Below are positions 1-42,748 of a stretch of DNA of 42,748 bases, piece by piece. Made by a program: the position numbers and the translations under genes. The DNA is from a virus (taxonomy: Duplodnaviria; Heunggongvirae; Uroviricota; Caudoviricetes): the IMG/VR virus record IMGVR_UViG_2695420651_000024, one strand, 5' to 3'. The number at the start of each line of letters is the position of its first letter. The first letter of the stretch is position 1. The notes under the pieces were generated by a model. The model was not told where the DNA came from. It worked only from the letters and a program-made list of their open reading frames with translations, and did no database searches.

Positions 1-332
1 CCGCCAACAGGCTGGCTGAAATGCAACGGTGCGGCTTTTTCTGCTGAAGAATACCCGGAACTGGCAAAGGCTTACCCGACCAATAAATTGCCTGATTTAC
101 GCGGTGAATTTATTCGTGGCTGGGATGACGGTCGCGGGATTGATACTGGTCGCGCTTTGCTTAATTGGCAGCCACACACAATTTTGGACCATGCACACTA
201 TATGGAATTATGGACAGGGGACGGACTCGCCGCAGGAAGTGCACGGGAAGGAGTAAACCCAGGAATACTGGCTACATACGGTGACGGGGGAATAGTTAAA
301 ACGGACGAACCCGGTCTTAATGTGCCTTCCTC
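1..332. repeat. Inverted repeat, left copy (reverse complement of 3185..3516); runs to the window edge so the true length is unknown
   Basis: Bases 1..36 are the exact reverse complement of 3481..3516. The 75-aa shadow ORFs 29..256(+) and 3261..3488(-) are identical. Identity ends after ggtcttaatgtgccttcc at 332/3185. Confidence 0.85.
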
Positions 333-384
333 ACTACGAGCTCTCGTAGTGTTAAACGTTATGGTGAAATTAGTGAAAATGTAG
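1..384 (+). CDS. Tail fibre protein, C-terminal tail-collar domain (5' end outside window)
   Basis: Frame open from base 1: [48 protein letters not shown]...HTILDHAHY, identical to the C-terminal part of the 3160..3933 fibre. Followed by a tfa gene. Confidence 0.6.
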   Translation, partial: PPTGWLKCNGAAFSAEEYPELAKAYPTNKLPDLRGEFIRGWDDGRGIDTGRALLNWQPHTILDHAHYMELWTGDGLAAGSAREGVNPGILATYGDGGIVKTDEPGLNVPSSLRALVVLNVMVKLVKM

Positions 385-436
385 GTACAGAAACTCGTCC
401 TCGTAACATCGCTTTTAATTATATCGTAAGGGCCGC

Positions 437-1042
437 ATGATGAATAAAGCTGTATTAAATAGCGAACTCATCACCACAAAGGCGGGAGACATTACCGTTT
501 ACAATTATGATGGTGAGACACGGGAATATATTTCCACATCAACTGAATATCTTGCTGTGGGTGTCGGTATCCCGGCATGTTCCTGTTTAGATGCTCCTGG
601 CTCATATAAAGCTGGTTATGCAATTTGCCGTTCTGCAGATTTTAACTCATGGGAATATGTGCCAGACCATCGCGGTGAAACGGTCTATAGCACTGAAACA
701 GGAGAATCAAAAGAAATCACAGCTCCGGGTGATTACCCTGAAAATACAACCACTATCGCTCCATTAACGCCATACGATAAATGGGATGGTGAGAAATGGG
801 TGACCGATACTGAGGCACAGCATAGCGCAGCAGTCGAAGCGGCAGAAGCACAGCGTCAGTCACTGATTGATGCTGCAATGGCTTCCATTAGTCTGATTCA
901 ACTGAAATTACAGGCCGGGCGGAAGCTGACGCAGGCAGAAACAACCCGGCTTAACGCTGTGCTGGATTACATTGACGCGGTGACTGCAACAGATACCAGC
1001 ACCGCGCCGGATGTCATCTGGCCTGAACTGCCGGAGGCGTAG
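437..1042 (+). CDS. tfa: Tail fibre assembly protein (Tfa)
   Basis: 201 aa; typical Tfa C-terminus ...TAPDVIWPELPEA; directly downstream of the fibre gene. Confidence 0.75.
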   Translation: MMNKAVLNSELITTKAGDITVYNYDGETREYISTSTEYLAVGVGIPACSCLDAPGSYKAGYAICRSADFNSWEYVPDHRGETVYSTETGESKEITAPGDYPENTTTIAPLTPYDKWDGEKWVTDTEAQHSAAVEAAEAQRQSLIDAAMASISLIQLKLQAGRKLTQAETTRLNAVLDYIDAVTATDTSTAPDVIWPELPEA

Positions 1043-1433
1043 GCCATTCAATATCTGGAGCACTGGAGATATCAACCAGTTCCAGTGCGTCCAGATAATC
1101 CAGCCATAAATTATATTGTTCCAGCTCGTCACCTTTCAGACGACCAATAGCGGCTTTACCAGGCCATTGCCTGCTATTCATGTGCTCGTTGGCTTCATTA
1201 ATAAGTTTTCCTTTTTTCAACTCTGCCAATGCAATAAGGTTTTCTTTTGATAAAGGTGGTTGCTCTGTCAAAACCGGATATCCCTCCTGATTGCTGACTA
1301 TTTTCATGCCATTATCCTGACCATCCAGTAGTGACAGCCATTCATCCGTGGTTATCTCAACAGCATCTGAAGGTGCTTTATTTAAATCGGTAAAAAAACC
1401 ATTTTCTTTTTGTGAATAGAAGTATCTGTCCAT
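1014..1433 (-). CDS. Alternative tail fibre assembly protein (Tfa') of the invertible cassette
   Basis: 139 aa; C-terminal SSAPDIEWPTPP motif; convergent with tfa and overlapping its 3' end, as in e14 tfaP/tfaE and Mu U/U'. Confidence 0.7.
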   Translation of the reverse strand: MDRYFYSQKENGFFTDLNKAPSDAVEITTDEWLSLLDGQDNGMKIVSNQEGYPVLTEQPPLSKENLIALAELKKGKLINEANEHMNSRQWPGKAAIGRLKGDELEQYNLWLDYLDALELVDISSAPDIEWPTPPAVQAR

Positions 1434-1436
1434 TTA

Positions 1437-1784
1437 TCAATCTCCAAAAGCAATCCAGTAAGCAAAAGGATTTACTCCTTGCTCAGTCACAGATGACATC
1501 AGGGAAAATTGCGATGGTGAAACAGGTAATGCTGCAAAACTAACCATTGTTGACACACCTGACCGTGCATTATCGTACGATGCAACAACACAATAATTGG
1601 TATTGCTGAAAGATATCGGCAGGGTGATATTTACAGGTGAGCCTAATGGCCCTGATGCTGATATTCCCATTTGAATGATGGTTCCATCAGGCAATTTTCT
1701 CCAGCGATTAGAACTCGGATTTCTTTTCCAGGCTGACATATCCGGTATCTGATTTTCTCCTGTACCCACATCCCTTTTCGCCGC
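1437..1784 (-). CDS. Promoterless alternative tail-fibre C-terminal segment (Sv'-like), expressed only after inversion
   Basis: Open frame (track ORF 1437..1838) with no plausible own start; it begins at the crossover site next to the invertase, the arrangement seen in Mu G / e14 P segments. Confidence 0.5.
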   Translation of the reverse strand, partial: AAKRDVGTGENQIPDMSAWKRNPSSNRWRKLPDGTIIQMGISASGPLGSPVNITLPISFSNTNYCVVASYDNARSGVSTMVSFAALPVSPSQFSLMSSVTEQGVNPFAYWIAFGD

Positions 1785-1810
1785 TTCTCCCAAACCAACG
1801 TTTATGAAAA
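1785..1810. other. Putative Pin/Gin/Hin-type inversion crossover site
   Basis: TTCTCCCAAACCAACGTTTATGAAAA matches the hix/gix/pix pattern TTnnnnAAAACCnnGGTTTnnnnAA at most core positions; lies between the Sv' segment and the invertase gene. Confidence 0.45.
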
Positions 1811-1865
1811 TGCAGAGATAACGGGCAACTGGCATCATCTCCGGTTTTTATTCAGGGGATCCATC

Positions 1866-2419
1866 ATGCTTATTGGCTATGTACGCGTATCAACAAATGA
1901 CCAGAACACCGATCTGCAACGTAATGCACTGAACTGCGCGGGATGTGAGCGGTTTTTTGAGGATAAAATCAGTGGCACTAAGTCCGACAGACCGGGGCTT
2001 AAAAAACTGCTCAGGACACTATCGGCAGGAGACACTCTGGTTGTCTGGAAGCTGGACAGGTTGGGGCGCAGTATGCGGCATCTTGTTACGCTGATAGAAG
2101 AGTTGCGTCAGCGTGGCGTGAATTTCCGAAGCCTGACTGACAGTATTGATACCAGCACCCCAATGGCCGTTTCTTTTTTCATGTCATGGGTGCCCTGGCT
2201 GAAATGGAGCGTGAACTGATTGTTGAACGAACAAAAGCTGGACTGGAAGCTGCTCGCGCACAGGGACGAATTGGCGGTCGCCGTCCCAAACTTTCATCAG
2301 AACAATGGGCGCAGGCCGGGCGACTAATTGCATCAGGCGTTCCTCGCCAGAATGTGGAGATCATCTATGATGTTGGCGTATCGACTTTGTATAAGAAGTT
2401 TCCGGTCGGAGATAAATGA
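1866..2419 (+). pseudogene. pin: Serine DNA invertase (Pin/Gin/Hin family) disrupted by a frameshift
   Basis: N-terminal MLIGYVRVSTNDQNTDLQRNAL...VVWKLDRLGRSM (catalytic Ser region) in one frame (1866..2219); C-terminal GALAEMERELIVERTKAG...GRIGGRRPKL...YDVGVSTLYKK in the next frame (2186..2419). The switch is at about 2163..2170, within ccaatggccgtttc. Confidence 0.8.
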
Positions 2420-2499
2420 AACCGTAGCACGTCGTATGCAAGAACGTGCCACGGCTGGCTGATAAGCTTGTAAAAATATTGAACAGGGAGTGGAGCATT

Positions 2500-3147
2500 C
2501 TATGAAGCTAATTTGTTTAATTTCATTTGTAGTGACTTTACTTCTTGGTCGATAATGTCGAATCCCTTATTGACAGCATCTCTTAGCTCTGCATCAATAT
2601 TTTTTATCCCTTGAGCATAATCTACCATTACATTTATTTTTGCATCATGTAATCTCTTATACATGGTTTTATCTTTGTTATTGTCTGCCATGCCAATAAG
2701 GATTTTTTCATAATCCTCAATGAGTTTGTTGTTTCCTTTAAATGATTGTATTAATGAGCGTGAATATGTGTATATGTTAATTATTGAGTCTCTAGCAGAA
2801 TCATTTAGTTTTGCAATGACATTCGCATTTTGCTCATAGAATGTGAAATTATCATCCCCTACAGGGAATGTGAGAATCAACATTTGTCCCGGTTTTATAT
2901 TATCAATGTGTGTTTTCATCCTTTTATTATATAAATTGATTAGGGTGAAAACTTCTCCCTTAACTCCTTTTAATACTGAAAGTTGTAATTCAAGGGATTC
3001 TCTTTCTGTCTCTACTTTAGACAGCTTAGCTTGTTGGGTAACTCCTTTTAGGGTAAACCATCCGCCAATAAGAGTACCAACTAGAGCTGTGAGGGAGGAG
3101 GATAACCATCCAGGTATGCTATTTAAAAGATTACTAAATTCACTCAT
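2500..3147 (-). CDS. Hypothetical membrane-anchored coiled-coil protein on a low-GC insert
   Basis: 215 aa; one N-terminal TM helix (LLNSIPGWLSSSLTALVGTLIGGWFTL) then K/E/N-rich helical region; DNA visibly AT-rich compared with flanks; sits where a tfa gene would normally follow the fibre gene. Confidence 0.5.
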   Translation of the reverse strand: MSEFSNLLNSIPGWLSSSLTALVGTLIGGWFTLKGVTQQAKLSKVETERESLELQLSVLKGVKGEVFTLINLYNKRMKTHIDNIKPGQMLILTFPVGDDNFTFYEQNANVIAKLNDSARDSIINIYTYSRSLIQSFKGNNKLIEDYEKILIGMADNNKDKTMYKRLHDAKINVMVDYAQGIKNIDAELRDAVNKGFDIIDQEVKSLQMKLNKLAS

Positions 3148-3159
3148 TATAAGTACTCG

Positions 3160-3933
3160 CTAATATTGAACGATATATATATCAGAGGAAGGCACATTAA
3201 GACCGGGTTCGTCCGTTTTAACTATTCCCCCGTCACCGTATGTAGCCAGTATTCCTGGGTTTACTCCTTCCCGTGCACTTCCTGCGGCGAGTCCGTCCCC
3301 TGTCCATAATTCCATATAGTGTGCATGGTCCAAAATTGTGTGTGGCTGCCAATTAAGCAAAGCGCGACCAGTATCAATCCCGCGACCGTCATCCCAGCCA
3401 CGAATAAATTCACCGCGTAAATCAGGCAATTTATTGGTCGGGTAAGCCTTTGCCAGTTCCGGGTATTCTTCAGCAGAAAAAGCCGCACCGTTGCATTTCA
3501 GCCAGCCTGTTGGCGGTGTGACTGAAGGCCACGGAACAGGCACACCAACAGGTAATGCAGAACCTTCTCCCAAACCAAGGTTTTCGAGAGCCGTTTGCAC
3601 AGTGCCATCCGATTTGATATCGCCAAACGGATTCTTGCGGCTCAGGTATTCAACAGCAAACCCCGATCCCAGCAATTCAACAAAACCGGGCAGATCACCA
3701 TTATCAAGCACATCCCGTTGCGTTTTGTCACTTACAAACTGGGCCAGAGCTGCAGCAATAAAGCTGGCCTGTCGAATGGCTTTGTTCACCTGCGCACTGG
3801 ATGCTTTCCCTGCTGTAAATCCGGATAAAAGCGCAGGCAACGCTTCCCATTCCTCCTGCGACATAACATTGGCATTTCGATCAGTTGCAAACGCTTTAAA
3901 GTCATTTTTCGCCATCAGAGTAATACTCCCCAT
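3160..3933 (-). CDS. Tail fibre protein with tail-collar C-terminal domain
   Basis: 257 aa; last gene of the baseplate operon; C-terminal ~110 aa identical to the left-edge fibre fragment (inverted repeat). Confidence 0.7.
3185..3516. repeat. Inverted repeat, right copy (reverse complement of 1..332)
   Basis: See left copy; the identical sequence encodes the C-terminal domain of the 3160..3933 fibre. Confidence 0.85.
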
Positions 3934-4595: not shown

Positions 4596-5791
4596 GACTC
4601 CACCGTTATAACGATATTTTCCGGGGTACAGGACGCAGATTCGTTGTATCTGATATCAATGTTTGATGACGACAAAGCCCCCGGAGATTTCCCAATCGTC
4701 AGTTCCTGAATATCGTAATAGCGTGCATTCCCGCCACTCACCACGCCAAGATTCGCCGGTGAGTAAATGCGACTTAAAAGGACCGAATCACCAATCATCA
4801 GACTATTGATATAGTCGGAAATAGCCTGCTGGATCTGCTGCCCTATCTGTGAGGTATAACCCGTAAAAACTTTTAATTTAATCCGGGCATAAACAGGCAC
4901 ATCACTGGAACGCGAGAATTTGATTACATGGGGATTGCCGTATTTATCCGGAACCGTAACGGATGTTGTACCGTGAGTGGCTGTCCCCTGGCCTTTATTC
5001 CCTCTGATAGCCTGAGCAATATCCATCACATCACCGCCATCCACAATTACAGCAACAGAGTGTGGCGGTAACCCGTTACCGTCCTCCGAACCAGTATCGT
5101 TTTCATAGAGTTTGTGGCGGGTTACACCGGTAACATTAGAAACAGCACCATCCAGTGCTTCAAATGGGGTTATTGATGGCAACGCAACACTTTGCGACTG
5201 GCGGATACGTAACTCCGCATCAGTTTCTGCCGGAGAGCCAACAGTAGCCGCAGCAGGATTAGTTACCGAAACCCAGCCACGGGTTGGCGTATTAATTTCA
5301 GTGATAGTTCCAGCCAGCGCCGCCACTGCACCACTGACGGAACATGTTGCGGTCGCCATCACTGTACCATCCACGCCGACCACCACTGAAGCAGGCAAAC
5401 GCCATATCACACTATTACTGTCTTTCACGCTGCCATTAATGATGGTTGTTCCGGCAGTTCCTGTAAGAAGCAAATCAACCGTAGAATTCGTCGCGCCTTT
5501 ACGTGAAATACCATTTATTTTCACGTTACTGGTCAGTGCGGCCCCATAGCCGGTTGCCGGTGAAAAACAGTTGTAGACAGTTATCGCAGTATTATTGGCA
5601 TCATGAATCGCCAGCGCCATCAGAGCCACCATCTGGCCGTCTTTACTATCCGGTTCGAGGTAGGCATCACTGCCATAAATCTGCTGAAAATAGCTAATCA
5701 GGGTGCTGAGTATCGTCTGATAATCAGGCGCACTGATCCCCTCCGCGGTTACCTTTGCAGATAAACCGAGAGAATCAAGGTTCAGAGCCAT
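4592..5791 (-). CDS. Baseplate J-like protein (Mu gp47-like)
   Basis: 399 aa; position and size in a conserved gp45-46-47-48 order. Confidence 0.6.
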   Translation of the reverse strand: MALNLDSLGLSAKVTAEGISAPDYQTILSTLISYFQQIYGSDAYLEPDSKDGQMVALMALAIHDANNTAITVYNCFSPATGYGAALTSNVKINGISRKGATNSTVDLLLTGTAGTTIINGSVKDSNSVIWRLPASVVVGVDGTVMATATCSVSGAVAALAGTITEINTPTRGWVSVTNPAAATVGSPAETDAELRIRQSQSVALPSITPFEALDGAVSNVTGVTRHKLYENDTGSEDGNGLPPHSVAVIVDGGDVMDIAQAIRGNKGQGTATHGTTSVTVPDKYGNPHVIKFSRSSDVPVYARIKLKVFTGYTSQIGQQIQQAISDYINSLMIGDSVLLSRIYSPANLGVVSGGNARYYDIQELTIGKSPGALSSSNIDIRYNESASCTPENIVITVES

Positions 5792-6144
5792 TACGCCTCC
5801 GATTTAACAGTCGTTATTCCATAGAGAGTGTCGATTTCAGCGGAAAACATGACACGTCGGGTCGTGGTATCCACCGTCGTATTGAAAGAGAGGATTGATT
5901 TAACGCCCCGCGTTTCGAGGATGCGCTTACGGATCGCCAGGTTGTAGGTTTCCGGCTTCTGCTTACCGAGCACAGACTGGATCCACGGGGTCCCTTCGGT
6001 GGTGTCGAGAAACCATTGCCCATACCACAATTCAAATCGCGTTTTTACCGCCTGCGCCACGGCCTCCGGTGAGTTAATCAGCCAGGTGTCATCACCGCTG
6101 CCAAAGGTGTAATCGCCATCGGCGTCTTCACGTCTGTATCGCAT
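5791..6144 (-). CDS. Baseplate protein, GpW/gp25-like (Mu gp46-like)
   Basis: 117 aa; start overlaps the stop of the upstream gene; conserved position. Confidence 0.5.
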   Translation of the reverse strand: MRYRREDADGDYTFGSGDDTWLINSPEAVAQAVKTRFELWYGQWFLDTTEGTPWIQSVLGKQKPETYNLAIRKRILETRGVKSILSFNTTVDTTTRRVMFSAEIDTLYGITTVKSEA

Positions 6145-6896
6145 CAGTTTACCCTATCGGTATTGCTTCCACCGCGCTGAACACCGCCATGAGTGTGCGT
6201 ATCATCGATTGGCTTGCCGTTAGCCTTCACGCTCCCCAAAAACTCAACAGCACCAGTGATTTTTGAAGCCACACCAGAAACCACAGACCCCACCATGCCC
6301 CCCATCCAGGTTAACAGGCCATGAATGGTTACTTTCTCAGAAAAATCAGCCAGAGGGGCAACCACATCAAGACCACCCGGAGCGACAATTTTAATTTTCC
6401 TGGTATCAGGATTAAGCTCAAAATAGGTGCTGCCGTCATCACTACGCAACTGTGTGGCACTGGTATTAATACCGCTAATCCTCCTTGCCTGCGACTGGGG
6501 ACCGACAATACAAAACGCATCCGATAAATCATGCATTCTGTCATCGACCGTCTCCTGTATCCCGCCACTCTGCCACCAGAAATCGATGCAGCGATCGGCA
6601 AAAATCACCAGGCATTCATCGCCGGCTTTTACCGGGAAAGTTAACGTGCAGCCGCCGCCGCGCGGAAATACCACCGGCACATCCACCAGCAGCGGGTAAT
6701 TTTTGGTTACGCGGTTGCCGTCGTTGTCGGTTTCAACCGAACGAATAGCAGGCTGCACAACCGCCGTCACCGCGTCAGGATCGAATGACTGAACGATGCC
6801 AGGCAAAGCGACGCGGATCTGGTTCTTTGTGGTTTCCCGCTCGGATTTGAATGTTTCGGCAAGGTCGCCGCTACGAGTCTGGTCTGATATGGCCAT
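6144..6896 (-). CDS. Baseplate spike/assembly protein (Mu gp45-like)
   Basis: Start taken at the internal ATG at 6896, which has AGGAG 7 nt upstream (product MAISDQTRSGD...); PGIVQSFDP...VVFP...GDECLVIF...RCIDFWW resembles the gp45/gp138 N-terminal domain. Confidence 0.6.
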   Translation of the reverse strand: MAISDQTRSGDLAETFKSERETTKNQIRVALPGIVQSFDPDAVTAVVQPAIRSVETDNDGNRVTKNYPLLVDVPVVFPRGGGCTLTFPVKAGDECLVIFADRCIDFWWQSGGIQETVDDRMHDLSDAFCIVGPQSQARRISGINTSATQLRSDDGSTYFELNPDTRKIKIVAPGGLDVVAPLADFSEKVTIHGLLTWMGGMVGSVVSGVASKITGAVEFLGSVKANGKPIDDTHTHGGVQRGGSNTDRVN

Positions 6897-6910
6897 TTGA
6901 TAAACTCCTG

Positions 6911-6938
6911 AAAACAAAAAACCCGCCAAGTGGCGGGT
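6911..6938 (-). terminator. Rho-independent terminator closing the baseplate moron operon
   Basis: Minus strand reads ACCCGCC-ACTT-GGCGGGT followed by TTTTTGTTTT, immediately upstream of the RBS of the gp45-like gene. Confidence 0.6.
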
Positions 6939-6958
6939 CTACAGGAACAACTCTAAGT

Positions 6959-7129
6959 TTATTTTTTCTGTTTAAAATTGTCCAACTCAGGTTCTTTAAC
7001 GCTTTCTGTCATGTAATCCAATCCACCAAAAGGTACTTCAAGCATTATACTGCTTTCATAATCAGCCATGGATTGCTCTGCTTGCGTTGGCTTGCTTTGC
7101 TGTGAGTTGTCATTATTTGATGTTGTCAT
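6959..7129 (-). CDS. Small acidic hypothetical protein (56 aa), translationally coupled to the membrane protein gene
   Basis: Hand translation: MTTSNNDNSQQSKPTQAEQSMADYESSIMLEVPFGGLDYMTESVKEPELDNFKQKK; ATG 3 nt after the upstream TAG; below the 60-aa track cutoff. Confidence 0.35.
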   Translation of the reverse strand: MTTSNNDNSQQSKPTQAEQSMADYESSIMLEVPFGGLDYMTESVKEPELDNFKQKK

Positions 7130-7132
7130 CAA

Positions 7133-7687
7133 CTATGCCTTATTTATCAAAAGAAAAGTAACCGATAATATGAAAAAACCGAAAGATAACGCAATTCCTT
7201 CAAAAAGATAACGAGCGTAAACTGCCTTTTCTTTATGAAGACTTTCGATCAATTCAACAGCTTTACCATACTGAAACATATGGTATCTAAGCGTTTTAAT
7301 TTTATCACCGTAAAATAAAAAATCATGCTCTTCTTTTCGCTTATGAATAGGCATTTTTGGTATATCTTTCAGTCCCCAAGTACGCCATAGGAAAAAAAAG
7401 CACATAACAATACAAACAAAGCACAGATATGCACAAAGTATAGATAATGTTAAAAACCAATTACTCTTTAGCCCACTTTTGAAATCAACAGTCCCAAATA
7501 CAGCCAGTAGAGCAGAGGTTTCTACAGCTAAAATAGCAAGAAGGTAGTTAACTTTGTCCTCAAGACGACGATATGTTGATTTTGCTTCCTCATATCTATC
7601 TTTATAATATGACGAAATAAAATCAGCGCCTATAGTCTCAATTGCCTTTTGTTCTTCTGTTGTATCTATTGACGAACGCTTGCTCAT
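7133..7687 (-). CDS. Hypothetical multi-pass inner-membrane protein on a low-GC insert
   Basis: 184 aa; about 45-aa soluble N-terminus, two adjacent TM helices, ~60-aa loop, C-terminal TM; strongly AT-rich DNA. Confidence 0.55.
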   Translation of the reverse strand: MSKRSSIDTTEEQKAIETIGADFISSYYKDRYEEAKSTYRRLEDKVNYLLAILAVETSALLAVFGTVDFKSGLKSNWFLTLSILCAYLCFVCIVMCFFFLWRTWGLKDIPKMPIHKRKEEHDFLFYGDKIKTLRYHMFQYGKAVELIESLHKEKAVYARYLFEGIALSFGFFILSVTFLLINKA

Positions 7688-7694
7688 TTCTCAA

Positions 7695-8042
7695 TCAACC
7701 AACAACTTTCTTACACGGGAAAGAGCCAATAATTTTCGGAGCATCCATGCTGTTCTGCAACAACTGGACGTTCAGGAAACGCGTTTTAGTGCCAGGTCGA
7801 TGGATATACTCGAACCCATAATTGTTGCCATCTTTGGCAGGCATCAGGTCCATTTTGATCTGCATGCCTGTACCGTCTTTACCCAACATTTTTACTTTTT
7901 GGGACGTTACTGTTTCGCCATTGATTTTAAATAATGAATCAGGGATCGCATCCATACGAAAGTTGCCGCATTGCATCGTTATGGTGTTTGCACTTACACC
8001 AACAGACACTAATGCCAGCAATGAAAATATCCATCGTTTCAT
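7695..8042 (-). CDS. Hypothetical secreted (periplasmic) protein with Sec signal peptide
   Basis: Start at internal ATG 8042 with GAGAGG RBS; MKRWIFSLLALVSVGVSA / NTITMQCG...; two Cys in the mature part; GC lower than flanking structural genes. Confidence 0.55.
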   Translation of the reverse strand: MKRWIFSLLALVSVGVSANTITMQCGNFRMDAIPDSLFKINGETVTSQKVKMLGKDGTGMQIKMDLMPAKDGNNYGFEYIHRPGTKTRFLNVQLLQNSMDAPKIIGSFPCKKVVG

Positions 8043-8044
8043 TT

Positions 8045-9109
8045 CTATAATCCTCTCTGAAAAGCAGTGCTGGATGGCATATCCTGCGCACCGCGCGCTT
8101 CGCACATCATATCCATGTACCACGCCTGGCCCCTTGTATCGCCAGTGTACATAATCCCGCGCACAATATAAACGCCATCCGTTGCGATGCTGGCAGGCTG
8201 CGATGTGGTGCCGCTTAGCGTAATATTTCCGTCCGTGTTCTGGTCGGTGATCTGCCCACCAGCCATAGCGATATCGTTGTTCGACAACGCGGTGCGATAT
8301 ACGGAAGCCTGATCCAGTTGAATGAGCCCATTAACCCGGATGTTCGGATTAATAAGCGCGCGAACGTTTACGCCGTTGCCGATGGTCTGCTGCGGCATGC
8401 CAATAAGCCCGGTAGCGCTGTTGAGCACAATCGCTTCGTGAACATATTCATTATTCGCCACCATCTGGCGCTGACCGTCTACGAATTGCCATGTTGCGCC
8501 ACATTGCCCGGCTACGTTATCCATTAGATGCCGCGTCATGCCAAAGAGCACCCGCCCCCGGGGGAATACAGTAGCAGGCATTTCAGGCGTCAGGCCTTCG
8601 GTCGCACCTTTGGCTTCGAAGTCTTTCATCAGCGCACGGTTCACATCAGCGACCGTGTAACCGGCAGCCAGCGTCTGTGAGGTTATACTGGTGGCAAAAG
8701 CCAGATCAGTATCTGCTGCCTGAATCAGGACGTAGGAATCAACCGGACTGTCTTTTCCTGTAACCGAGTAGCGAATTTCACCGCTGAAAATCAGTCCGTA
8801 GTTGCGGCCATCACTCTGGCCCACGTCCGCCGCATCAACCTCCCGCACGATCCCGACGTCGCTTGCCGACACCTCCGGCGCGATACCGTCGTAACCCGCA
8901 ATCAGACGCACTTTCGAAAACTCCCGCCCGGTGATTCGGTTCACAGTATCTGCCGAGAGGTTATAAATTTTGATAGTCCCTACCCGGGACGCGCTGCTGA
9001 TGTTGAACCAGTCGATCGTAAAGGTCACTTTAAAATCACTTAGCTCAATTCCCTGACCGTTCCCGTCCACAAGCTGCAGCTCGAAATGTCTCATCCAGTT
9101 CTGTGACAT
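8045..9109 (-). CDS. Baseplate hub-like tail protein (Mu gp44-like)
   Basis: 354 aa; position between tape-measure-proximal genes and the gp45-like gene. Confidence 0.5.
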   Translation of the reverse strand: MSQNWMRHFELQLVDGNGQGIELSDFKVTFTIDWFNISSASRVGTIKIYNLSADTVNRITGREFSKVRLIAGYDGIAPEVSASDVGIVREVDAADVGQSDGRNYGLIFSGEIRYSVTGKDSPVDSYVLIQAADTDLAFATSITSQTLAAGYTVADVNRALMKDFEAKGATEGLTPEMPATVFPRGRVLFGMTRHLMDNVAGQCGATWQFVDGQRQMVANNEYVHEAIVLNSATGLIGMPQQTIGNGVNVRALINPNIRVNGLIQLDQASVYRTALSNNDIAMAGGQITDQNTDGNITLSGTTSQPASIATDGVYIVRGIMYTGDTRGQAWYMDMMCEARGAQDMPSSTAFQRGL

Positions 9110-9111
9110 GC

Positions 9112-9414
9112 TTACTCCGTTGATACCAGTAAATGGCTGCGACCGCCCAGGTCAGTTTTTGTGGGGTAATCCTGTGTGTTGTCATCACAGACCACCACCA
9201 GCTTAAAACCAAGCCCCATACAGGCGTACTGCGCCAGCAGGTCAGCACCAGTGACGAGAGGAATACCGGAGATTACCGGCTCCCCTCTGTCGTTCTGCAG
9301 GTCCATAATCCAGTACAGATCGCGCCATATGATGCTAATCCGCCAGGTAACACCACCCAGGACGATGCTGAACTGCTGGTTGTCCGCTGTCAGCGGAATT
9401 TCCTGAATTGCCAT
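9112..9414 (-). CDS. Phage tail protein (small, baseplate-associated)
   Basis: 100 aa; tightly packed within the tail operon. Confidence 0.4.
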   Translation of the reverse strand: MAIQEIPLTADNQQFSIVLGGVTWRISIIWRDLYWIMDLQNDRGEPVISGIPLVTGADLLAQYACMGLGFKLVVVCDDNTQDYPTKTDLGGRSHLLVSTE

Positions 9415-10001
9415 TAGCCGCCCCCCAGTAATGACGCCACGTTACCCGTGATGCTTTTCAGCAGTGAAGTATCTGGAGGCTTGGTGGTTTTGTTGCCGCT
9501 GTTCTGTACCGCCGAGGTGCTGGCCCCTTCCTTCATGTTGGTTTTATCCGCGACGGAAATCTGCTGTGTCCGGGAGATAAGGACCTCCCTCAGGGTGAGG
9601 ACGGCGGACAGGACGTTTTCGGTTGTCTTGTCCGTCGTCACTTCCAGCGCCCGGATCAACATGTTGCTGTACAGTCGTTTACCGGTTACCACATCGAAGG
9701 GGATACGGCTTTCCTGCAGATCCAGTAGCTCCTGATACGTCTGCTGAGGACTCAGGCCGAGCAGGCTGGTAGCCGTCAGGTTACTGGCAAAATCCAGCAA
9801 TGCGCCACCACCGGCGAAACCAACCTCCATCACCACTTCTGACGGTTTTTTATAGGCATGATCAGCGACAGCGGCCCCGACCTCTACCGGATGCTCTGTT
9901 ATTTCAAGCATATCTGTATGCTTCTCTGAAATAACAACACAGGGAACAATCATTCCTATTTTTCTGCTCTGCTGATGAAAAAGTGTAGAGAGAATATCCA
10001 C
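9414..10001 (-). CDS. Phage tail protein immediately downstream of the tape measure
   Basis: 195 aa; position only. Confidence 0.4.
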   Translation of the reverse strand: MDILSTLFHQQSRKIGMIVPCVVISEKHTDMLEITEHPVEVGAAVADHAYKKPSEVVMEVGFAGGGALLDFASNLTATSLLGLSPQQTYQELLDLQESRIPFDVVTGKRLYSNMLIRALEVTTDKTTENVLSAVLTLREVLISRTQQISVADKTNMKEGASTSAVQNSGNKTTKPPDTSLLKSITGNVASLLGGG

Positions 10002-28908: not shown

Positions 28909-29583
28909 ATGATTGATACTACCGATATCCTTTCTCAAAACATCAAGTACCTGATGGACAAAGCCAAGATAAGCTCGATAACTGAGCTGGCACGTCGGTT
29001 ACAGCTGAACCAACCAACGCTACACAGGCTGGTATCAGGAGAGGTGAAAGATCCGAAATACGCAACGTTAAAGCAGATCGCCGACTACTTCCACGTGTCA
29101 CCAATAGACTTGGCAGAAAGGAGCCTTCAAGAAATGGAGAAAGAGGACGCGACAGGTATAAAAACGTATATTTCTCTTAGGTTTAATAAAGTACCTGTTT
29201 TGGGAAACACTCAGCTAGGCGTTGGAGGACTTTGGAGCGACACCCAATATTCAGTAGGTAGCAGTGATGGTTTCATATACTGGCCGACAAAGGATGAAGA
29301 TGCATACGCCCTGAAATGTGTTGGTGATTCAATGATGCCTAGAATCAAAGAGGGGGAGTTCGTAATCGTCGAACCCAACCACGACTACACTCCTGGTGAT
29401 GAAGTACTTGTGGTTACCCGGGAAGGTGAGGTCATGGTTAAAACCTTCTTGTTCGAACGCGATGGCCTGTTCCATCTAATGTCTGTAAATGAAGATCATC
29501 CACCAGTCAGAGTACCACGCGAAAACATTGAAAAAATCCATTACGTGGCGGGGATCGCCAAATCCGCGCTACGTATGTACTAA
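28909..29583 (+). CDS. cI: CI-like prophage repressor (HTH plus S24/LexA-type autopeptidase domain)
   Basis: 224 aa; N-terminal HTH (ITELARRLQLNQPTLHRLVSG); C-terminal LKCVGDSMMPRIKEGEFVIVEP (Ser) and a downstream Lys, as in LexA/CI. Confidence 0.8.
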   Translation: MIDTTDILSQNIKYLMDKAKISSITELARRLQLNQPTLHRLVSGEVKDPKYATLKQIADYFHVSPIDLAERSLQEMEKEDATGIKTYISLRFNKVPVLGNTQLGVGGLWSDTQYSVGSSDGFIYWPTKDEDAYALKCVGDSMMPRIKEGEFVIVEPNHDYTPGDEVLVVTREGEVMVKTFLFERDGLFHLMSVNEDHPPVRVPRENIEKIHYVAGIAKSALRMY

Positions 29584-33719: not shown

Positions 33720-34349
33720 TCACTCAGGAATCTTAATCTTCCTCAATTCTTTATTTAGTTCACAGATCTTCTTCTTAGACGGGAAAGTATCATACATCCA
33801 AAAACCAACAGTCTCTAAAACTATTGTCATAACCATATACACAAGATAATTTAAAAGGCCTTCATTTTGCCCTATGGAAATAATGCAGATAATAGAAAAA
33901 AGGATAAACAGCACAAAACACAGAAAGGAAAACAGACGACTAATAATAAATAAAAAACCTGAAAAATTAACATTGATGAAAAACACTCCGTTATCTTTCT
34001 CTATATAATTCTGAAGCTTAATCACCTGATTTATATACTGTCTTTTTTCTAATCTATTGCAAATGTAAATAACATCACTTCGGTTATAAGAAGATTGCAA
34101 TTTCAGCGCATCACGAATAATTTTATCATTTATTCTTTTTTCTATGGCACTCTTATCCTCCTTATCCAGATAACGTTCATACTTAACTAAATATAAAATT
34201 AACTTCTTGACATATTTAGGCTCTTTATACTTATAATTAAAAATGATCTTTCTTATCCAGACTCCCATAACAATCAAACATGAAAAAATATATCCAGCTA
34301 TTTTCTCCAGATGCTCTGTATGGTCAATCAAGTATTGGATCATATGCAT
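33720..34349 (-). CDS. Hypothetical polytopic membrane protein on a low-GC insert, opposite strand to the early operon
   Basis: 209 aa; TM near the N-terminus, K/E/Y-rich cytoplasmic region, then a long hydrophobic stretch (FSGFLFIISRLFSFLCFVLFILFSIICIISIG) and a further TM; very AT-rich DNA. Confidence 0.5.
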   Translation of the reverse strand: MHMIQYLIDHTEHLEKIAGYIFSCLIVMGVWIRKIIFNYKYKEPKYVKKLILYLVKYERYLDKEDKSAIEKRINDKIIRDALKLQSSYNRSDVIYICNRLEKRQYINQVIKLQNYIEKDNGVFFINVNFSGFLFIISRLFSFLCFVLFILFSIICIISIGQNEGLLNYLVYMVMTIVLETVGFWMYDTFPSKKKICELNKELRKIKIPE

Positions 34350-38247: not shown

Positions 38248-39177
38248 TTATGGGTTAGGTAATGCACGATTATTAAAATTATCAATAATTTGCAACGCCG
38301 CCGTTTGTCCGCCAGCCAATAGCCCTGCTTTACTCAGAAGGTATTTAGGGAATTTGGTTGGTAAATAAACCGCACGAAGCCAGTGCCTGAATACAGCTAA
38401 AGCATTATCAGGGTATGCATAGACCATTTGGGGATTACTTGCGGATTGGTTGAATTCTTCAGGGTAATAGTGCTGGCAGCGTTGTCTTGGGCCAATCGTC
38501 GCATCGTAGTTGGAAGAAGACCAGTAGCGAGCCCAGTGCTGGCCCACACTGATATCCGGTACAGTGTACTGGTTTACTGCTAATCCAGCATGGATGAGGT
38601 CTACCATTAAACCAGCAATTTCATTGAATACAATGAAGTGTCCAGCAGGAACCGAGTTTGCCCCATGCATGATTGACACACGAGAGTGGTAATGACGCCA
38701 AGGGTCATCAGGTATGTAGCCAAGCGCTGTATAGATGTAACCACGCATACCCGCACGGGATAGCTCGCGGAAAAACTGTAGCGCAGTAGGAGTTGCAGCA
38801 CTTTGAGATACAAATGCGTAGAACTCCAGAATAGCCATACAGACTACTTCTGGGTACGCATAATGGACTGACCCATCTTTGTTGATTGGGATATAAAGAG
38901 TCGGCTCATTATATTGCTCACGCTGTAAATATGAGCTGATAAACTCCATACGCCCTCGAGCGAAAACTCCGTGGCGGAAGCTCTCTTCCCACTCTCGAGA
39001 AATATCCGCGATATTACTGCGATGCACCCCGCAAATCCTAGCCAGCCCATTTTGCGTAAGGTAGGAGATCCCGTTCTGAAGAACCCCCATTTCTATTTCG
39101 TTAAAAACCCCCTCAGTACTAACACCTAAGTCCAGTACTTGTTGGGGTGCGGGTTGCTGACCACCAAATTCACTCAT
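38248..39177 (-). CDS. Hypothetical protein with N-terminal HTH-like segment, opposite strand to the early operon
   Basis: 309 aa; NGISYLTQNGLARICGVHRSNIADISREW looks like a DNA-binding helix-turn-helix; convergent with the MTase gene and divergent from the SNF2 gene. Confidence 0.45.
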   Translation of the reverse strand: MSEFGGQQPAPQQVLDLGVSTEGVFNEIEMGVLQNGISYLTQNGLARICGVHRSNIADISREWEESFRHGVFARGRMEFISSYLQREQYNEPTLYIPINKDGSVHYAYPEVVCMAILEFYAFVSQSAATPTALQFFRELSRAGMRGYIYTALGYIPDDPWRHYHSRVSIMHGANSVPAGHFIVFNEIAGLMVDLIHAGLAVNQYTVPDISVGQHWARYWSSSNYDATIGPRQRCQHYYPEEFNQSASNPQMVYAYPDNALAVFRHWLRAVYLPTKFPKYLLSKAGLLAGGQTAALQIIDNFNNRALPNP

Positions 39178-40682: not shown

Positions 40683-40879
40683 GCGAGAAACCCGACGATT
40701 TACTCACCCCAGATGAAGTATGCCAAAAGTTAGGTATTACACAGAAAACGCTATGTGAGTGGAATATTAAGCATCGTCATCGGGCTATCCTGGCACCAAT
40801 TCGTTTCAGTGCAAAAGTAGTTCGTTATGAGCGCCGAAATGTCGACGCTTTTATTCAAAAGTGTCGCAGCCAGTATTAA
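40679..40879 (+). CDS. xis: Excisionase/AlpA-like HTH protein
   Basis: 66 aa; LTPDEVCQKLGITQKTLCEW; start overlaps the SNF2 stop; adjacent and convergent to the integrase. Confidence 0.55.
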   Translation: MSEKPDDLLTPDEVCQKLGITQKTLCEWNIKHRHRAILAPIRFSAKVVRYERRNVDAFIQKCRSQY

Positions 40880-42279
40880 CCTCGCCGCCGTAGCAATGCA
40901 ACCTGCGCAAGTATGCTCCGCTCGTGAGCCTCGAAAGCTTCGCGCTTTAACGCAATCTCTTCCTGTAAAATCTCATCAGAAAAGTCGTAATGTTCTGCCA
41001 TCGGGTCATCTGACTTGCTGGAGTGGTGAAGGCAAAGGAGGCTGATTTCCCTTCGGTCTGATCGGGAATAGCCTCTTTCCTTCATCAAGGCAATAACATT
41101 GCTCTTAAGGAATTTACGGCACATCGTATTAAATGCACCGTCTTTCCCTTTAACAGTCCCATCATGTTTTATTCCTTTTACAGCCCCGTCCGGGCTGTAT
41201 GTTTTCACCAGCTTATCCAGTGATCGTTTTGAAAATGGCTGCATTGGATCACGTGGCTGCAAAAATACATAATCCCTGTTGCACTCAGGAACTGAATCAC
41301 GCCAGGCTTTCTGCTCGTCGATAATCCGCCGAATCTCAGGCGTTATCGGCAGGCGGAAAGCCTTTTGTGTTTTCATAGCCCCTCGCATGCCGATAACCCC
41401 TTCCGGATAAACAATTTCACCAGCCTCCTCGTGAACGTAGTCCCAGCGCAGGTTATGGACATTAATCGGACGAACGCCAGTGATGATCATGAAGCGAACA
41501 GCATTCTTCTGGTGTACAGAGGTGCAGGCAGCAACATTGAGCCAGAGTCGGGCGATTGATTCAATATCGGTAAAAAGCCGTGTGGGGGTAGGTTTCTGTA
41601 CGCGGGAGGAAACATAATCATCTGGCAGACTGGCGGCAACATTGCGGCCGTTGCAAAGAGTAGGTGCGCAGAACTTCCAGAACCGACGGAGCTCGGCAAA
41701 CAACTCCAGGGCGTTATTGTTCGAGCGAGTGGCGATCCACTCGTCCAGCACTTCCACCAGCCGATTGTATGTTACGTCGCTGAACACCTCACGCTCGCCG
41801 AACGTTGCTTTAATCCGGTCGATACGCACCCCGTAGGTTGTGAAACTGTCCGGGCTCAGCTTCTGCCGGGCGACTTTGGCTTTGAGGTCATCCCGGTACA
41901 TTTCCAGCGCTGCATGTACTGACTCTGCCCGCAAGCCACAGTCAGCCATACCTAGCGCTTTTTCGCGCGCCAGCTGGATAGCGAGCTCCGGCCACTCGCC
42001 GAGCTTTTTACCCTTGAGGCCCATCTTTTTTGGAAACTCGGCGTAAAATGTAACCTTACCGGCTTTGCTGAAATCGATACGGAGATAGTTCTCTTTTTCG
42101 TATTTGGAACGGCGAGCCACGCCGGAAGCAGCGAGGATGATTTTGGCGGCAGCAACACAGATTTTCATGTGTGCGCTGGTATAGGGGGGTTTACAGGCGT
42201 CCCATTTTTCAGATGCGGCTAAAACATCGTCATTATTGGGGCTATCCGGATTATGTGTTACAGTGCGCGGCATTCTCAA
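40876..42279 (-). CDS. int: Tyrosine-type phage integrase
   Basis: 467-aa track ORF (real start may be an internal Met near 42168); C-terminal catalytic-region-like sequence; terminal position next to a host gene. Confidence 0.75.
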   Translation of the reverse strand: MRMPRTVTHNPDSPNNDDVLAASEKWDACKPPYTSAHMKICVAAAKIILAASGVARRSKYEKENYLRIDFSKAGKVTFYAEFPKKMGLKGKKLGEWPELAIQLAREKALGMADCGLRAESVHAALEMYRDDLKAKVARQKLSPDSFTTYGVRIDRIKATFGEREVFSDVTYNRLVEVLDEWIATRSNNNALELFAELRRFWKFCAPTLCNGRNVAASLPDDYVSSRVQKPTPTRLFTDIESIARLWLNVAACTSVHQKNAVRFMIITGVRPINVHNLRWDYVHEEAGEIVYPEGVIGMRGAMKTQKAFRLPITPEIRRIIDEQKAWRDSVPECNRDYVFLQPRDPMQPFSKRSLDKLVKTYSPDGAVKGIKHDGTVKGKDGAFNTMCRKFLKSNVIALMKERGYSRSDRREISLLCLHHSSKSDDPMAEHYDFSDEILQEEIALKREAFEAHERSILAQVALLRRRG

Positions 42280-42478
42280 TCCTTATCTGCGTAGGCGCAG
42301 AAAACAAGCTCACACATACAAGTCTTTTCTACGGGACAAAATGCAATGTGTTGCGGTTTTGTGTTGCTGGACTGAGTTTATCAAGGTTAAATACACTGGA
42401 TCAACATACAGTAAGTTAATGACAGTAAAGCATACAAACTCGATACAACTTACTGATTTTAAAATGATTTAACGGTAA

Positions 42479-42748
<270 letters not shown>

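What the first reader, a model, noticed from the sequence alone, without database searches (positions are those of the whole stretch)
2500..3147. Low-GC gene for a membrane-anchored coiled-coil protein sits where the tail-fibre chaperone should be
The 215-aa product has one N-terminal TM helix and a long K/E/N-rich helical region, with no resemblance to Tfa proteins. Its DNA is far more AT-rich than the adjacent fibre gene, which marks it as acquired cargo. The slot after the fibre gene is a known hotspot for lysogenic-conversion, superinfection-exclusion and defence genes. Function is unknown and may be novel.
Basis: partly seen in the sequence, partly recalled or inferred. Interest (0 to 1): 0.6.

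Follow-up and report, generated by a model that had tools for sequence, protein, structure and literature searches.

The report
Solitary prophage cargo gene, membrane protein
The low-GC gene is real and is a self-contained one-gene cargo cassette that hops between prophages, satellites and conjugative elements. It has not replaced the tail-fibre chaperone: both chaperones are present, and its position next to the fibre gene comes from a rearrangement seen only in this window.

Summary
ORF 2500..3147 (-), 215 aa, is real. Its GC is 33% against 50% for the window. Its product is predicted to be a single-pass membrane protein, N-terminus out and C-terminus in, with a compact cytoplasmic helical bundle rather than a generic coiled coil. 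It belongs to a large uncharacterised family: 216 close homologues in Enterobacterales and 661 clusters overall, with no hit in Pfam, NCBIfam, PADLOC, PHROGs or PDB.

The positional claim fails. Two Tfa chaperone genes are present (437..1042, 1014..1433) inside a Pin-type invertible fibre segment. In the related E. coli genomes inspected, the gene is the last prophage gene, beyond the invertase and about 540 bp from attR. In this window it touches the fibre gene only through a private blunt junction (3184|3185) with a 332-bp perfect inverted duplication that reaches the window start.

Elsewhere the gene travels alone. Shared DNA is the CDS plus at most about 200 bp upstream and 43 bp downstream. 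It sits in lambdoid prophages, P2-like prophages, integrase/capsid satellites, an ICE and a chromosomal islet.

Best reading: an autonomous moron, probably anti-phage (abortive infection or exclusion at the inner membrane). The function is untested. Interest is moderate to low.

The parts
2500..3147 (-). ORF215, the gene in question. It is 215 aa with 33.2% GC. Predicted layout: a short periplasmic N-tail (about 1-13), a Gly-rich TM helix (about 14-36), and a cytoplasmic helical bundle (about 45-214).
3148..3184 (-). The 37 nt of native 5' leader kept in the window, including a weak Shine-Dalgarno. The native TATAAT-like box lies just beyond the junction and is missing here.
3184..3185 (.). 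Window-private blunt junction with 0 nt of microhomology. It joins the ORF215 leader to the reverse complement of the fibre variable part.
1..332 (+). Left arm of a 332-nt, 100% inverted duplication that runs into the window start. It is a second, N-terminally cut copy of the fibre variable part.
3185..3516 (-). Right arm of the inverted duplication. It is part of the minus-strand fibre gene.
332..351 (+). Short palindrome at the inner edge of the left arm. It carries a private 7-nt deletion (AGCTATT) that frameshifts the plus-strand fibre copy.
3160..3933 (-). Tail-fibre gene with a tail-collar domain (RefSeq start corresponds to 3915). It is truncated by the junction and ends ...LNVPSS+DIYIVQY*.
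437..1042 (+). tfaE-type tail-fibre assembly chaperone (Caudo_TAP, 2.5e-33).
1014..1433 (-). Second, alternative tail-fibre assembly chaperone (Caudo_TAP, 1.3e-25).
1437..1838 (-). Alternative fibre C-terminal segment (Gp53-like_C).
1785..1810 (+). 26-bp Hin/Pin-type crossover site, TTCTCCCAAACCAACGTTTATGAAAA.
3565..3590 (+). Second crossover site in the constant part of the fibre gene (TTCTCCCAAACCAAGGTTTTCGAGAG). In this window it is in direct, not inverted, orientation to the first site.
1866..2419 (+). pinE-type serine invertase, frameshifted (554 nt against 555; split into 117-aa and 77-aa ORFs). It is convergent with ORF215.

Best explanation
ORF215 is an autonomous single-gene cargo cassette (a 'moron').

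Shown:
- In its normal setting it is the terminal gene of an E. coli prophage integrated between yfhH and yfhL. It lies beyond the Pin-type invertase and about 540 bp from attR.
- It is AT-rich relative to the prophage.
- It moves between unrelated mobile elements with only about 170-200 bp of its own upstream leader and about 40 bp downstream.

Inferred from sequence statistics and a confident model:
- The product is a bitopic inner-membrane protein with its N-terminus out and C-terminus in.
- It has a conserved Gly-zipper-like TM helix (G24, G28, G29).
- It has a compact cytoplasmic helical bundle with a conserved polar set (E65, Y73, Y126, N139, N140, Y177).

Inferred from context only:
- It is expressed from its own promoter in the lysogen or host and protects the cell against other phages.
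- The favoured mechanism is abortive infection. The cytoplasmic bundle would recognise an infection cue and release or drive association of the TM helices, which would compromise the membrane.
- The alternative is exclusion of genome entry at the cytoplasmic face of the inner membrane.

Its adjacency to the fibre gene in this window is incidental. It results from a private fold-back rearrangement or a chimeric contig end.
For: Position:
- Window 1-3184 is colinear at 99.8% with O103:H2 12009. The order there is fibre, tfaE, tfa', Sv', pinE, ORF215, about 640 bp, yfhH.
- The same order appears in all 10 E. coli places inspected, with both orientations of the invertible segment.
- The att core TTCACACATATCACAATT lies about 540 bp beyond the gene in 12009 and occurs once in the window, at 42518-42535.

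Cargo nature:
- GC is 33% against 50%.
- Pairwise blastn between 12 contexts confines homology to the CDS plus at most about 200 bp upstream and 43 bp downstream.
- K. pneumoniae and Pantoea copies are 96.5% identical over exactly -166..+36.
- The upstream leader is conserved across six genera and carries a TATAAT/TATAGT-like box and a Shine-Dalgarno.

Contexts:
- ICE cargo next to CcdAB.
- A chromosomal islet next to HigBA.
- Directly after and co-directional with cI in a lambdoid prophage, a rexAB-like slot.
- Next to the integrase in capsid-encoding satellites, with PD-T7-4 about 2 kb away in one.
- Directly after gpJ.
- The last gene before the icd' junction.
- 12 of 21 IMG/VR proviral copies lie within 3 kb of a provirus end.
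- Integrase is the commonest neighbour family.

Protein:
- K/R counts are 0.21 on the N-flank against 3.28 on the C-flank, and 97% of 127 family members have more on the C-side.
- Longer relatives have a signal peptide plus an ectodomain before the same TM helix.
- The TM helix is as conserved as the bundle.

Prior:
- The same prophage carries BstA (2.5e-110).
- 6 of 8 randomly chosen unknown loci in P4 hotspots were defensive (PMC13586616).
- In e14-type elements the gene after pin is mcrA.
Against: - There is no sequence or fold link to any known defence, exclusion or abortive-infection protein. PADLOC gave 0 hits for the protein and only scattered singletons for 56 relatives. Pfam, NCBIfam, PHROGs, PDB and BFVD were negative.
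- There are no expression or phenotype data, and no paper mentions the accession.
- No canonical terminator or strong promoter was found by the simple scans.
- Some distant family members sit in ordinary chromosomal neighbourhoods, so the ancestral function may be housekeeping.
- In P2 hotspots only 15-32% of unknown proteins are predicted defensive.
- The TM region of the model has low confidence (pLDDT about 50), and this protein's TM helix is weakly hydrophobic.
Confidence: 0.45

Rival explanations
1. It is a lysogenic-conversion or host-physiology factor unrelated to phage defence. A membrane-tethered cytoplasmic bundle would modulate a host envelope or stress function, or a membrane protein. 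This would parallel HK97 gp15, which derives from the host YebO family.
For: - The superfamily is very broad: 661 clusters at 50% identity.
- It includes copies in ordinary chromosomal settings, for example between a NUDIX gene and homoserine dehydrogenase.
- No defence hallmark domain is present.
- Neighbours in several prophages are SOS or mutagenesis cargo (umuDC, DinI, SRAP).
Against: - The enterobacterial clade is found almost only on mobile elements, in slots typical of exclusion and defence genes: after cI, next to an integrase, at prophage ends.
- It shows sporadic distribution and recent inter-genus transfer.
Confidence: 0.27
2. It is a phage lytic-cycle accessory, such as a lysis-timing or holin regulator, or a helper of injection or assembly at the membrane. 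It would be used by the phage itself rather than by the lysogen.
For: - It is membrane-anchored.
- In this window it sits 12 nt after a late tail gene and is co-directional with it.
- In Morganella it follows gpJ co-directionally.
- One distant relative sits next to a lysis cassette.
Against: - It is absent from all 50,697 deposited phage genomes by tblastn.
- It is present in an ICE, a chromosomal islet and satellites that have no tail or lysis genes nearby.
- In E. coli it is convergent with the invertase and separated from the late operon.
- A closely related invertible fibre module sits in a P2-like prophage without it.
Confidence: 0.08
3. It is a selfish membrane toxin or addiction-type gene with no benefit to host or phage, or a decaying remnant.
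For: - It has a small Gly/Ser-rich TM helix of the kind seen in membrane-active toxins.
- It neighbours toxin-antitoxin pairs (CcdAB, HigBA) in two contexts.
- N-terminally shortened 139-aa forms are annotated in at least 130 contigs.
- In this lineage the prophage is degenerate, with a frameshifted invertase.
Against: - No conserved antitoxin-like partner exists.
- There is strong purifying conservation over the whole 215 aa across genera.
- The exact protein is kept on at least 1000 contigs.
Confidence: 0.1
4. It is a substitute tail-fibre chaperone or a structural or assembly protein. This is the reading implied by 'sits where the chaperone should be'.
For: Only the adjacency in this window: 12 nt downstream of the truncated fibre ORF.
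Against: - Two bona fide Tfa genes are present.
- The adjacency is a private junction.
- Homologues occur without any fibre gene nearby.
- The membrane topology and helical-bundle fold are unlike those of Tfa proteins.
Confidence: 0.02

Closest known systems
HK97 gp15 (moron-encoded inner-membrane superinfection-exclusion protein; PMC3594210)
   Same: - It is a small moron-encoded protein in the tail-gene region.
- It inserts in the inner membrane.
- It is expressed from the prophage.
- It has relatives outside prophages, as gp15 does with the YebO family.
   Different: - There is no sequence relationship: Pfam gave no hit.
- ORF215 has a large conserved cytoplasmic bundle.
- Exclusion activity has not been tested for ORF215.
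P22 SieA and lambda/P22 SieB-type exclusion or abortive-infection membrane proteins (PMC10883804)
   Same: - They are prophage-encoded inner-membrane proteins of about 160-220 aa.
- They have a conserved cytoplasm-facing motif.
- They are single genes.
   Different: - SieA has three TM helices, while ORF215 has one.
- No homology was detected.
- ORF215 is spread over many kinds of mobile element rather than one phage lineage.
mcrA after pin in e14, and mom after gin in Mu (the Mu case is from my own knowledge)
   Same: Positional analogue. A cargo gene occupies the slot between the fibre-segment invertase and the prophage end. The pin-mcrA adjacency was seen in ON470584.
   Different: - McrA is a nuclease and Mom is a DNA modifier. 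ORF215 is a membrane protein.
- ORF215 is convergent with the invertase.
Four-helix-bundle ligand-binding domains of chemoreceptors and sensor kinases (Tar/Tsr, PcaY, TorS) and DUF3829
   Different: - Sequence identity is only 5-12%, and there is no profile hit.
- Those domains are periplasmic and lie between two TM helices. This one is predicted to be cytoplasmic, with a single TM helix and no output domain.
- Foldseek found nothing significant.
BstA (prophage abortive-infection protein) in the same prophage, 38248..39177
   Same: It is a single-gene cargo at the other end of the same prophage, next to the integrase (PADLOC 2.5e-110).
   Different: It is an unrelated protein with HTH and DNA-binding features. 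It only shows that this prophage carries defence cargo.

Membership tests
Tail-fibre assembly proteins (Caudo_TAP, PF02413) | Match to the Caudo_TAP profile | tested here: not met
   ORF215 gave no hit at E<=1. The genes at 437..1042 and 1014..1433 hit at 2.5e-33 and 1.3e-25.
Tail-fibre assembly proteins (Caudo_TAP, PF02413) | Conserved position immediately downstream of a cognate fibre gene in relatives | tested here: not met
   In E. coli the gene lies beyond the invertase. Elsewhere it is in an ICE, an islet, satellites and an immunity region.
Moron (independent cargo unit in a phage genome; PMC3594210) | Nucleotide composition deviating from the surrounding phage genes | tested here: met
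   GC is 33.2% against a gene mean of 49.4% (z = -2.7). It falls in the lowest 0.8% of 648-nt windows.
Moron (independent cargo unit in a phage genome; PMC3594210) | Present or absent independently of the flanking genes, and moves on its own | tested here: met
   Homology between 12 contexts is limited to the CDS, -200 and +43 nt. The same invertible fibre module occurs in a P2-like prophage without the gene.
Moron (independent cargo unit in a phage genome; PMC3594210) | Own promoter and terminator | tested here: inconclusive
   A conserved leader carries a TATAAT/TATAGT-like box and a Shine-Dalgarno in six genera. Simple scans were not above the shuffled expectation, and no canonical terminator was found next to the E. 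coli gene.
Moron (independent cargo unit in a phage genome; PMC3594210) | Expressed from the repressed prophage | not testable with these tools
   This needs RNA-seq or 5'-RACE on a lysogen. The only indirect hint is a co-directional position right after cI in Providencia prophages.
Known anti-phage defence families (PADLOC-DB 2.0.0) | Match to any defence-protein HMM | tested here: not met
   ORF215 gave 0 hits. The 56 diverse relatives gave only scattered single weak hits.
Described superinfection-exclusion and abortive-infection membrane proteins with Pfam models (SieB, T4 Imm and YebO/gp15-like are in Pfam to my knowledge) | Profile match | tested here: not met
   A whole Pfam-A scan gave nothing at E<=1 for ORF215 except one chance hit (Pgp3_N, 0.16). 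Nothing consistent appeared for the 56 relatives.
4HB_MCP-type sensor domains | Four-helix-bundle fold | tested here: inconclusive
4HB_MCP-type sensor domains | Periplasmic location between two TM helices, upstream of a signalling module | tested here: not met
   The protein has a single TM helix. The positive-inside rule and signal-peptide-bearing relatives place the bundle in the cytoplasm. There is no output domain.
Hin/Gin/Cin/Pin invertible tail-fibre segment (the genomic context) | Serine invertase next to two alternative fibre-tip and Tfa sets, with both orientations seen among genomes | tested here: met
   Intact relatives encode Resolvase+HTH_7. Both orientations are seen. In this window the invertase is frameshifted.
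Hin/Gin/Cin/Pin invertible tail-fibre segment (the genomic context) | Two 26-bp crossover sites in inverted orientation | tested here: not met
   In this window the sites at 1785-1810 and 3565-3590 are direct repeats, because of the private flip of 1-3184. They are inverted in reference genomes.

The most novel reading that the evidence does not exclude
ORF215 founds an undescribed, widespread family of single-gene anti-phage systems: 661 clusters at 50% identity, with no model in Pfam or PADLOC. In this reading a cytoplasmic helical-bundle sensor is fused to a glycine-zipper TM helix. On infection the helix self-associates to depolarise the membrane, or it blocks genome entry from the cytoplasmic face. 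The unit would spread as a cassette of about 0.9 kb among prophages, satellites, ICEs and phage-plasmids.
Probability: 0.3. Interest if true: 0.6.

Novelty: new member of a known kind. Interest (0 to 1): 0.35.

Why it matters
If the anti-phage reading holds, this is a compact one-gene, 215-aa defence module. It has an unexplored sensor fold, is common in pathogenic E. coli (the exact protein is on at least 1000 contigs) and occurs across Enterobacterales. It would also be a clean example of a cassette that hops between the cargo slots of very different mobile elements.

If the reading fails, the gene is one more conserved hypothetical moron.

The case also carries a practical warning. The apparent replacement of the fibre chaperone was produced by a private inverted-duplication junction at the window edge. 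Positional arguments near invertible segments should therefore be checked against complete genomes.

Tried and rejected
Negative searches on the protein and its family:
- Sequence-family searches of ORF215 in Pfam, PADLOC, PHROGs and NCBIfam found nothing.
- Pfam, PADLOC and PHROGs searches of 56 diverse relatives gave only scattered noise.
- PDB searches by sequence and by profile found nothing.
- tblastn against 50,697 phage genomes gave no match.
- A literature search for the RefSeq accession found no paper. The new P4/P2 hotspot systems (Bandua, Aernus, Toga, Reve, Crouga, Hailong) do not match this architecture.

Partner genes:
- A search for a conserved partner gene found none across contexts.
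- The 88-aa ORF upstream in E. coli has no family and no counterpart elsewhere.

The junction:
- I considered that 3184|3185 is a Pin-mediated product. I rejected this because neither breakpoint resembles the 26-bp crossover site.
- I considered a de Bruijn repeat artefact. This is unlikely because the junction has no shared bases.
- Real or artefactual could not be decided.
- Scans for the junction in IMG/VR and in GTDB representatives found nothing.

Other:
- The search for related loci with the divergent alignment A2 failed for lack of a conserved stretch.

Full report
**The observation**

An ATG-to-stop ORF of 215 aa lies at 2500..3147 on the minus strand. Its GC is 33.2%. The window as a whole is 50.1% and the adjacent fibre gene is 49.4%. 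Only 0.8% of 648-nt windows in the sequence are as AT-rich.

The protein has no Caudo_TAP signal, whereas two nearby genes do.

The window starts with a 332-nt stretch that is a perfect inverted copy of 3185-3516. Between the two arms lies a complete Pin/Gin-type invertible fibre module:
- a fibre-tip segment followed by tfaE (437..1042, Caudo_TAP 2.5e-33);
- a second Tfa (1014..1433, 1.3e-25) and a second fibre tip (1437..1838, Gp53-like_C) on the other strand;
- a 26-bp crossover site at 1785-1810, with its partner at 3565-3590 in the constant part of the fibre gene;
- a pinE-type invertase (1866..2419) that is frameshifted.

The chaperones are therefore present.

Window 1-3184 is colinear at 99.8% with E. 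coli O103:H2 12009. The order there is baseplate J, wedge, fibre, tfaE, tfa', Sv', pinE, ORF215 (WP_001288820.1), about 640 bp, then host yfhH. All ten E. coli places returned for the exact protein have this order, with the invertible segment in either orientation.

The other end of the window carries the integrase and host yfhL. An 18-bp repeat, TTCACACATATCACAATT, marks the att core. It occurs once in the window (42518-42535) and about 540 bp beyond ORF215 in 12009. ORF215 is thus normally the last gene of the prophage, beyond the invertase.

**The junction that places ORF215 12 nt downstream of the fibre ORF**

- The junction at 3184|3185 is blunt, with no shared bases.
- It truncates the fibre, which ends ...LNVPSS+DIYIVQY*.
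- It is absent from 5,426 complete E. coli genomes, from IMG/VR and from GTDB representative genomes.
- At the inner edge of the other arm, the window has a private 7-nt deletion inside a short palindrome. That deletion is also absent from every complete genome.

These are two private anomalies within 10 bp of one arm's edge (332/333), plus a private junction at the other arm's edge. The duplication runs into the window start. Together this points to one complex event: either a real fold-back with inverted duplication, or a chimeric contig end. I could not decide which.

Either way, the adjacency is not a feature of the element. If the junction is real, the gene is cut from its native upstream region, because a TATAAT box lies just beyond the junction in 12009.

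**The protein**

No described family matches it in Pfam, PADLOC, PHROGs, NCBIfam or PDB sequences.

It does have 216 close homologues of 215-223 aa and 55-75% identity in Dickeya, Salmonella, Enterobacter, Yersinia, Providencia, Morganella, Serratia, Klebsiella, Proteus, Pantoea and others. All are annotated as hypothetical. They share long invariant motifs: LELQLSVLKG.KGE, GDDNFTFYEQNA, RDSIINIYTY.RSLIQSFKGNN and DYAQGIK.ID.E.

A profile search of 1.84 billion representatives finds 661 clusters at E<=1e-3, and 250 at E<=1e-10. Nearly all are 185-230 aa with the same layout. None of 56 diverse members falls consistently in any Pfam, PADLOC or PHROGs family, and the profile finds nothing in the PDB.

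AlphaFold2 on the family alignment gives pLDDT 82.6 and pTM 0.69. An N-terminal helix (13-82) passes from the membrane segment into a bundle with helices 116-154 and 160-214, plus a conserved loop and short-helix element at 83-111.

**Topology**

- In 127 family representatives, the 15 residues before the TM helix hold 0.21 K/R on average and the 15 after it hold 3.28. In 97% of them the C-side has more.
- Longer relatives carry a signal-peptide-like N-terminus and a 40-70-aa hydrophilic segment before the same Gly-rich TM helix.

Both features place the N-terminus outside and the bundle in the cytoplasm.

The TM helix is as conserved as the bundle. G24 is kept in 95% and G29 in 86% of the divergent set. 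This suggests helix-helix packing rather than a passive anchor.

E65 (100%), Y73, Y104, N107, Y126, N139, N140, Y177 and K182 form a conserved polar set.

Two caveats apply. In ORF215 itself the TM helix is only marginally hydrophobic, and the model is uncertain there (pLDDT about 50).

**Genomic behaviour**

Contexts for the close family:
- ICE cargo beside CcdAB and an IS110 element in Dickeya.
- A small chromosomal islet beside HigBA in Enterobacter.
- Directly after, and co-directional with, the cI repressor and an HSDR_N protein in Providencia lambdoid prophages.
- Next to the integrase of capsid-encoding satellites in Klebsiella. In one, the known defence gene PD-T7-4 lies about 2 kb away.
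- The last gene before the icd' junction of a Citrobacter prophage, after fibre, Tfa, umuDC and SRAP cargo.
- Immediately after lambdoid gpJ in Morganella.

Contexts for more distant relatives:
- About 110-kb IncFIB non-mobilizable plasmids that carry phage-type genes (31% identity).
- A prophage, between the lysis and replication genes and on the opposite strand (28% identity).
- An ordinary chromosomal neighbourhood.

Broader surveys agree:
- In IMG/VR, 12 of 21 proviral copies lie within 3 kb of a provirus end.
- Among 116 neighbour ORFs in 13 further loci, the commonest family is the phage integrase.
- No neighbour is conserved across contexts.
- Pairwise blastn between 12 contexts confines shared DNA to the CDS plus at most about 200 bp upstream and 43 bp downstream. 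A Klebsiella and a Pantoea copy are 96.5% identical over exactly -166..+36.
- The upstream leader is conserved in six genera and holds a TATAAT/TATAGT-like box about 45 nt before the start, plus a Shine-Dalgarno. The simple promoter and terminator scans are not above background.
- The gene is absent from all 50,697 deposited phage genomes.
- It is found in only 7 of about 185,000 species-representative genomes by the pattern scan.
- A near-identical invertible fibre module sits in a P2-like prophage without it.

All of this defines a solitary, mobile, one-gene cassette, which is a moron in the sense of PMC3594210.

**How it probably works**

Shown:
- It is cargo.
- It moves on its own.
- It lies in the terminal slot of the prophage.

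Well supported:
- Single-pass topology with the N-terminus out and the C-terminus in.
- A constrained TM helix.
- A conserved cytoplasmic bundle.

Inferred from context:
- The gene is expressed in the lysogen or host and protects against other phages.

The slots it occupies are those where exclusion and defence genes are known. These are after cI, after J or the fibres, beside integrases of satellites, and after the invertase (mcrA follows pin in an e14-type sequence). The same prophage carries BstA. The literature describes the P2 fibre locus as a mixed hotspot with invertases and defence-like cargo. It also reports that 6 of 8 unknown P4 hotspot loci were defensive.

I favour an abortive-infection-type membrane effector over pure exclusion, for two reasons. 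Almost nothing of the protein faces the periplasm, and the family is far broader than a lineage-specific exclusion factor would be. This preference is weak.

Nothing links the protein by homology to any known defence system, and some distant members look chromosomal. A non-defence host-physiology role therefore remains a serious rival.

**Verdict**

Its cargo interpretation is right. Its positional hook, the replacement of the chaperone, is wrong.

The object is an undescribed family member of a familiar kind, a prophage moron encoding a membrane protein. It is a reasonable but unproven candidate for a new single-gene anti-phage system.

Noticed in passing
window 38248..39177 (-): This is a BstA homologue (PADLOC BstA, E 2.5e-110), a known prophage abortive-infection protein. 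It sits near the integrase end and is annotated only as hypothetical in RefSeq 12009.
   Followed up: partly
window 6959..7687 (-): This is a second low-GC island (34-37% GC), inserted between the baseplate spike and hub genes. It holds a 57-aa ORF and a 184-aa multi-TM ORF. The 184-aa ORF has weak PycTM/2TM-effector similarity (PADLOC E 2.6e-4 and 7e-3) and its own PHROG (phrog_18554). It is another candidate moron.
   Followed up: partly
window 33720..34349 (-): This is the lowest-GC gene in the window (29.5%), 209 aa. It lies on the opposite strand inside the replication module (DUF2800, DUF2815, DNA polymerase). It gave no Pfam or PADLOC hit.
   Followed up: partly
window 1866..2419 (+): The pinE-type invertase is frameshifted, with 554 nt against 555 and the split in a T-run near 2170-2185. 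RefSeq 12009 shows the same frameshift. The fibre segment could therefore only be flipped in trans.
   Followed up: partly
window 332..351 and 1..332 / 3185..3516: There is a private 7-nt deletion in a palindrome at the edge of a perfect 332-nt inverted duplication, and a blunt private junction at 3184|3185. Both fibre copies are defective, and the two crossover sites are in direct orientation. The cause is unexplained: a real fold-back or a chimeric contig end.
   Followed up: partly
L025 (GCA_964043225.1), locus 5001-10648: In one E. coli genome the order yfhH, ORF215, invertase is followed directly by the distant aroE-dprA chromosomal region instead of the fibre module. This implies a large rearrangement with a breakpoint at the invertible segment. 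The locus seems prone to rearrangement.
   Followed up: no
L001 9213..9479 (natural context, not in the window): An 88-aa ORF (43% GC) lies between attR and ORF215 and is co-directional with it and with host yfhH. It is called in some annotations only. It has no family and no counterpart next to homologues elsewhere.
   Followed up: partly
L014 versus L043: The Klebsiella pneumoniae satellite copy and the Pantoea anthophila copy of the cassette are 96.5% identical over exactly -166..+36 around the CDS. This indicates recent inter-genus transfer of the one-gene unit.
   Followed up: partly
proteins P0114-P0120: N-terminally shortened forms of 139-142 aa, which lack the TM helix, are annotated on at least 130 contigs, including O55:H7 CB9615 (G2583_3093). 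They may be wrong start calls or decayed alleles.
   Followed up: no
L037 (E. coli O55:H7 DEC5E): The same invertible fibre/Tfa/invertase module (92% identical to window 1-2322) sits in a P2-like prophage between the fibre genes and the sheath gene. The module itself is shared between unrelated phage backbones.
   Followed up: partly
window 28909..29583 (+) and 40876..42535: There is a cI-type repressor (HTH plus Peptidase_S24). A tyrosine integrase (40876..42279) lies next to the att core (42518-42535). The window ends exactly at the end of host yfhL, which suggests the window is a predicted provirus cut at gene boundaries.
   Followed up: partly
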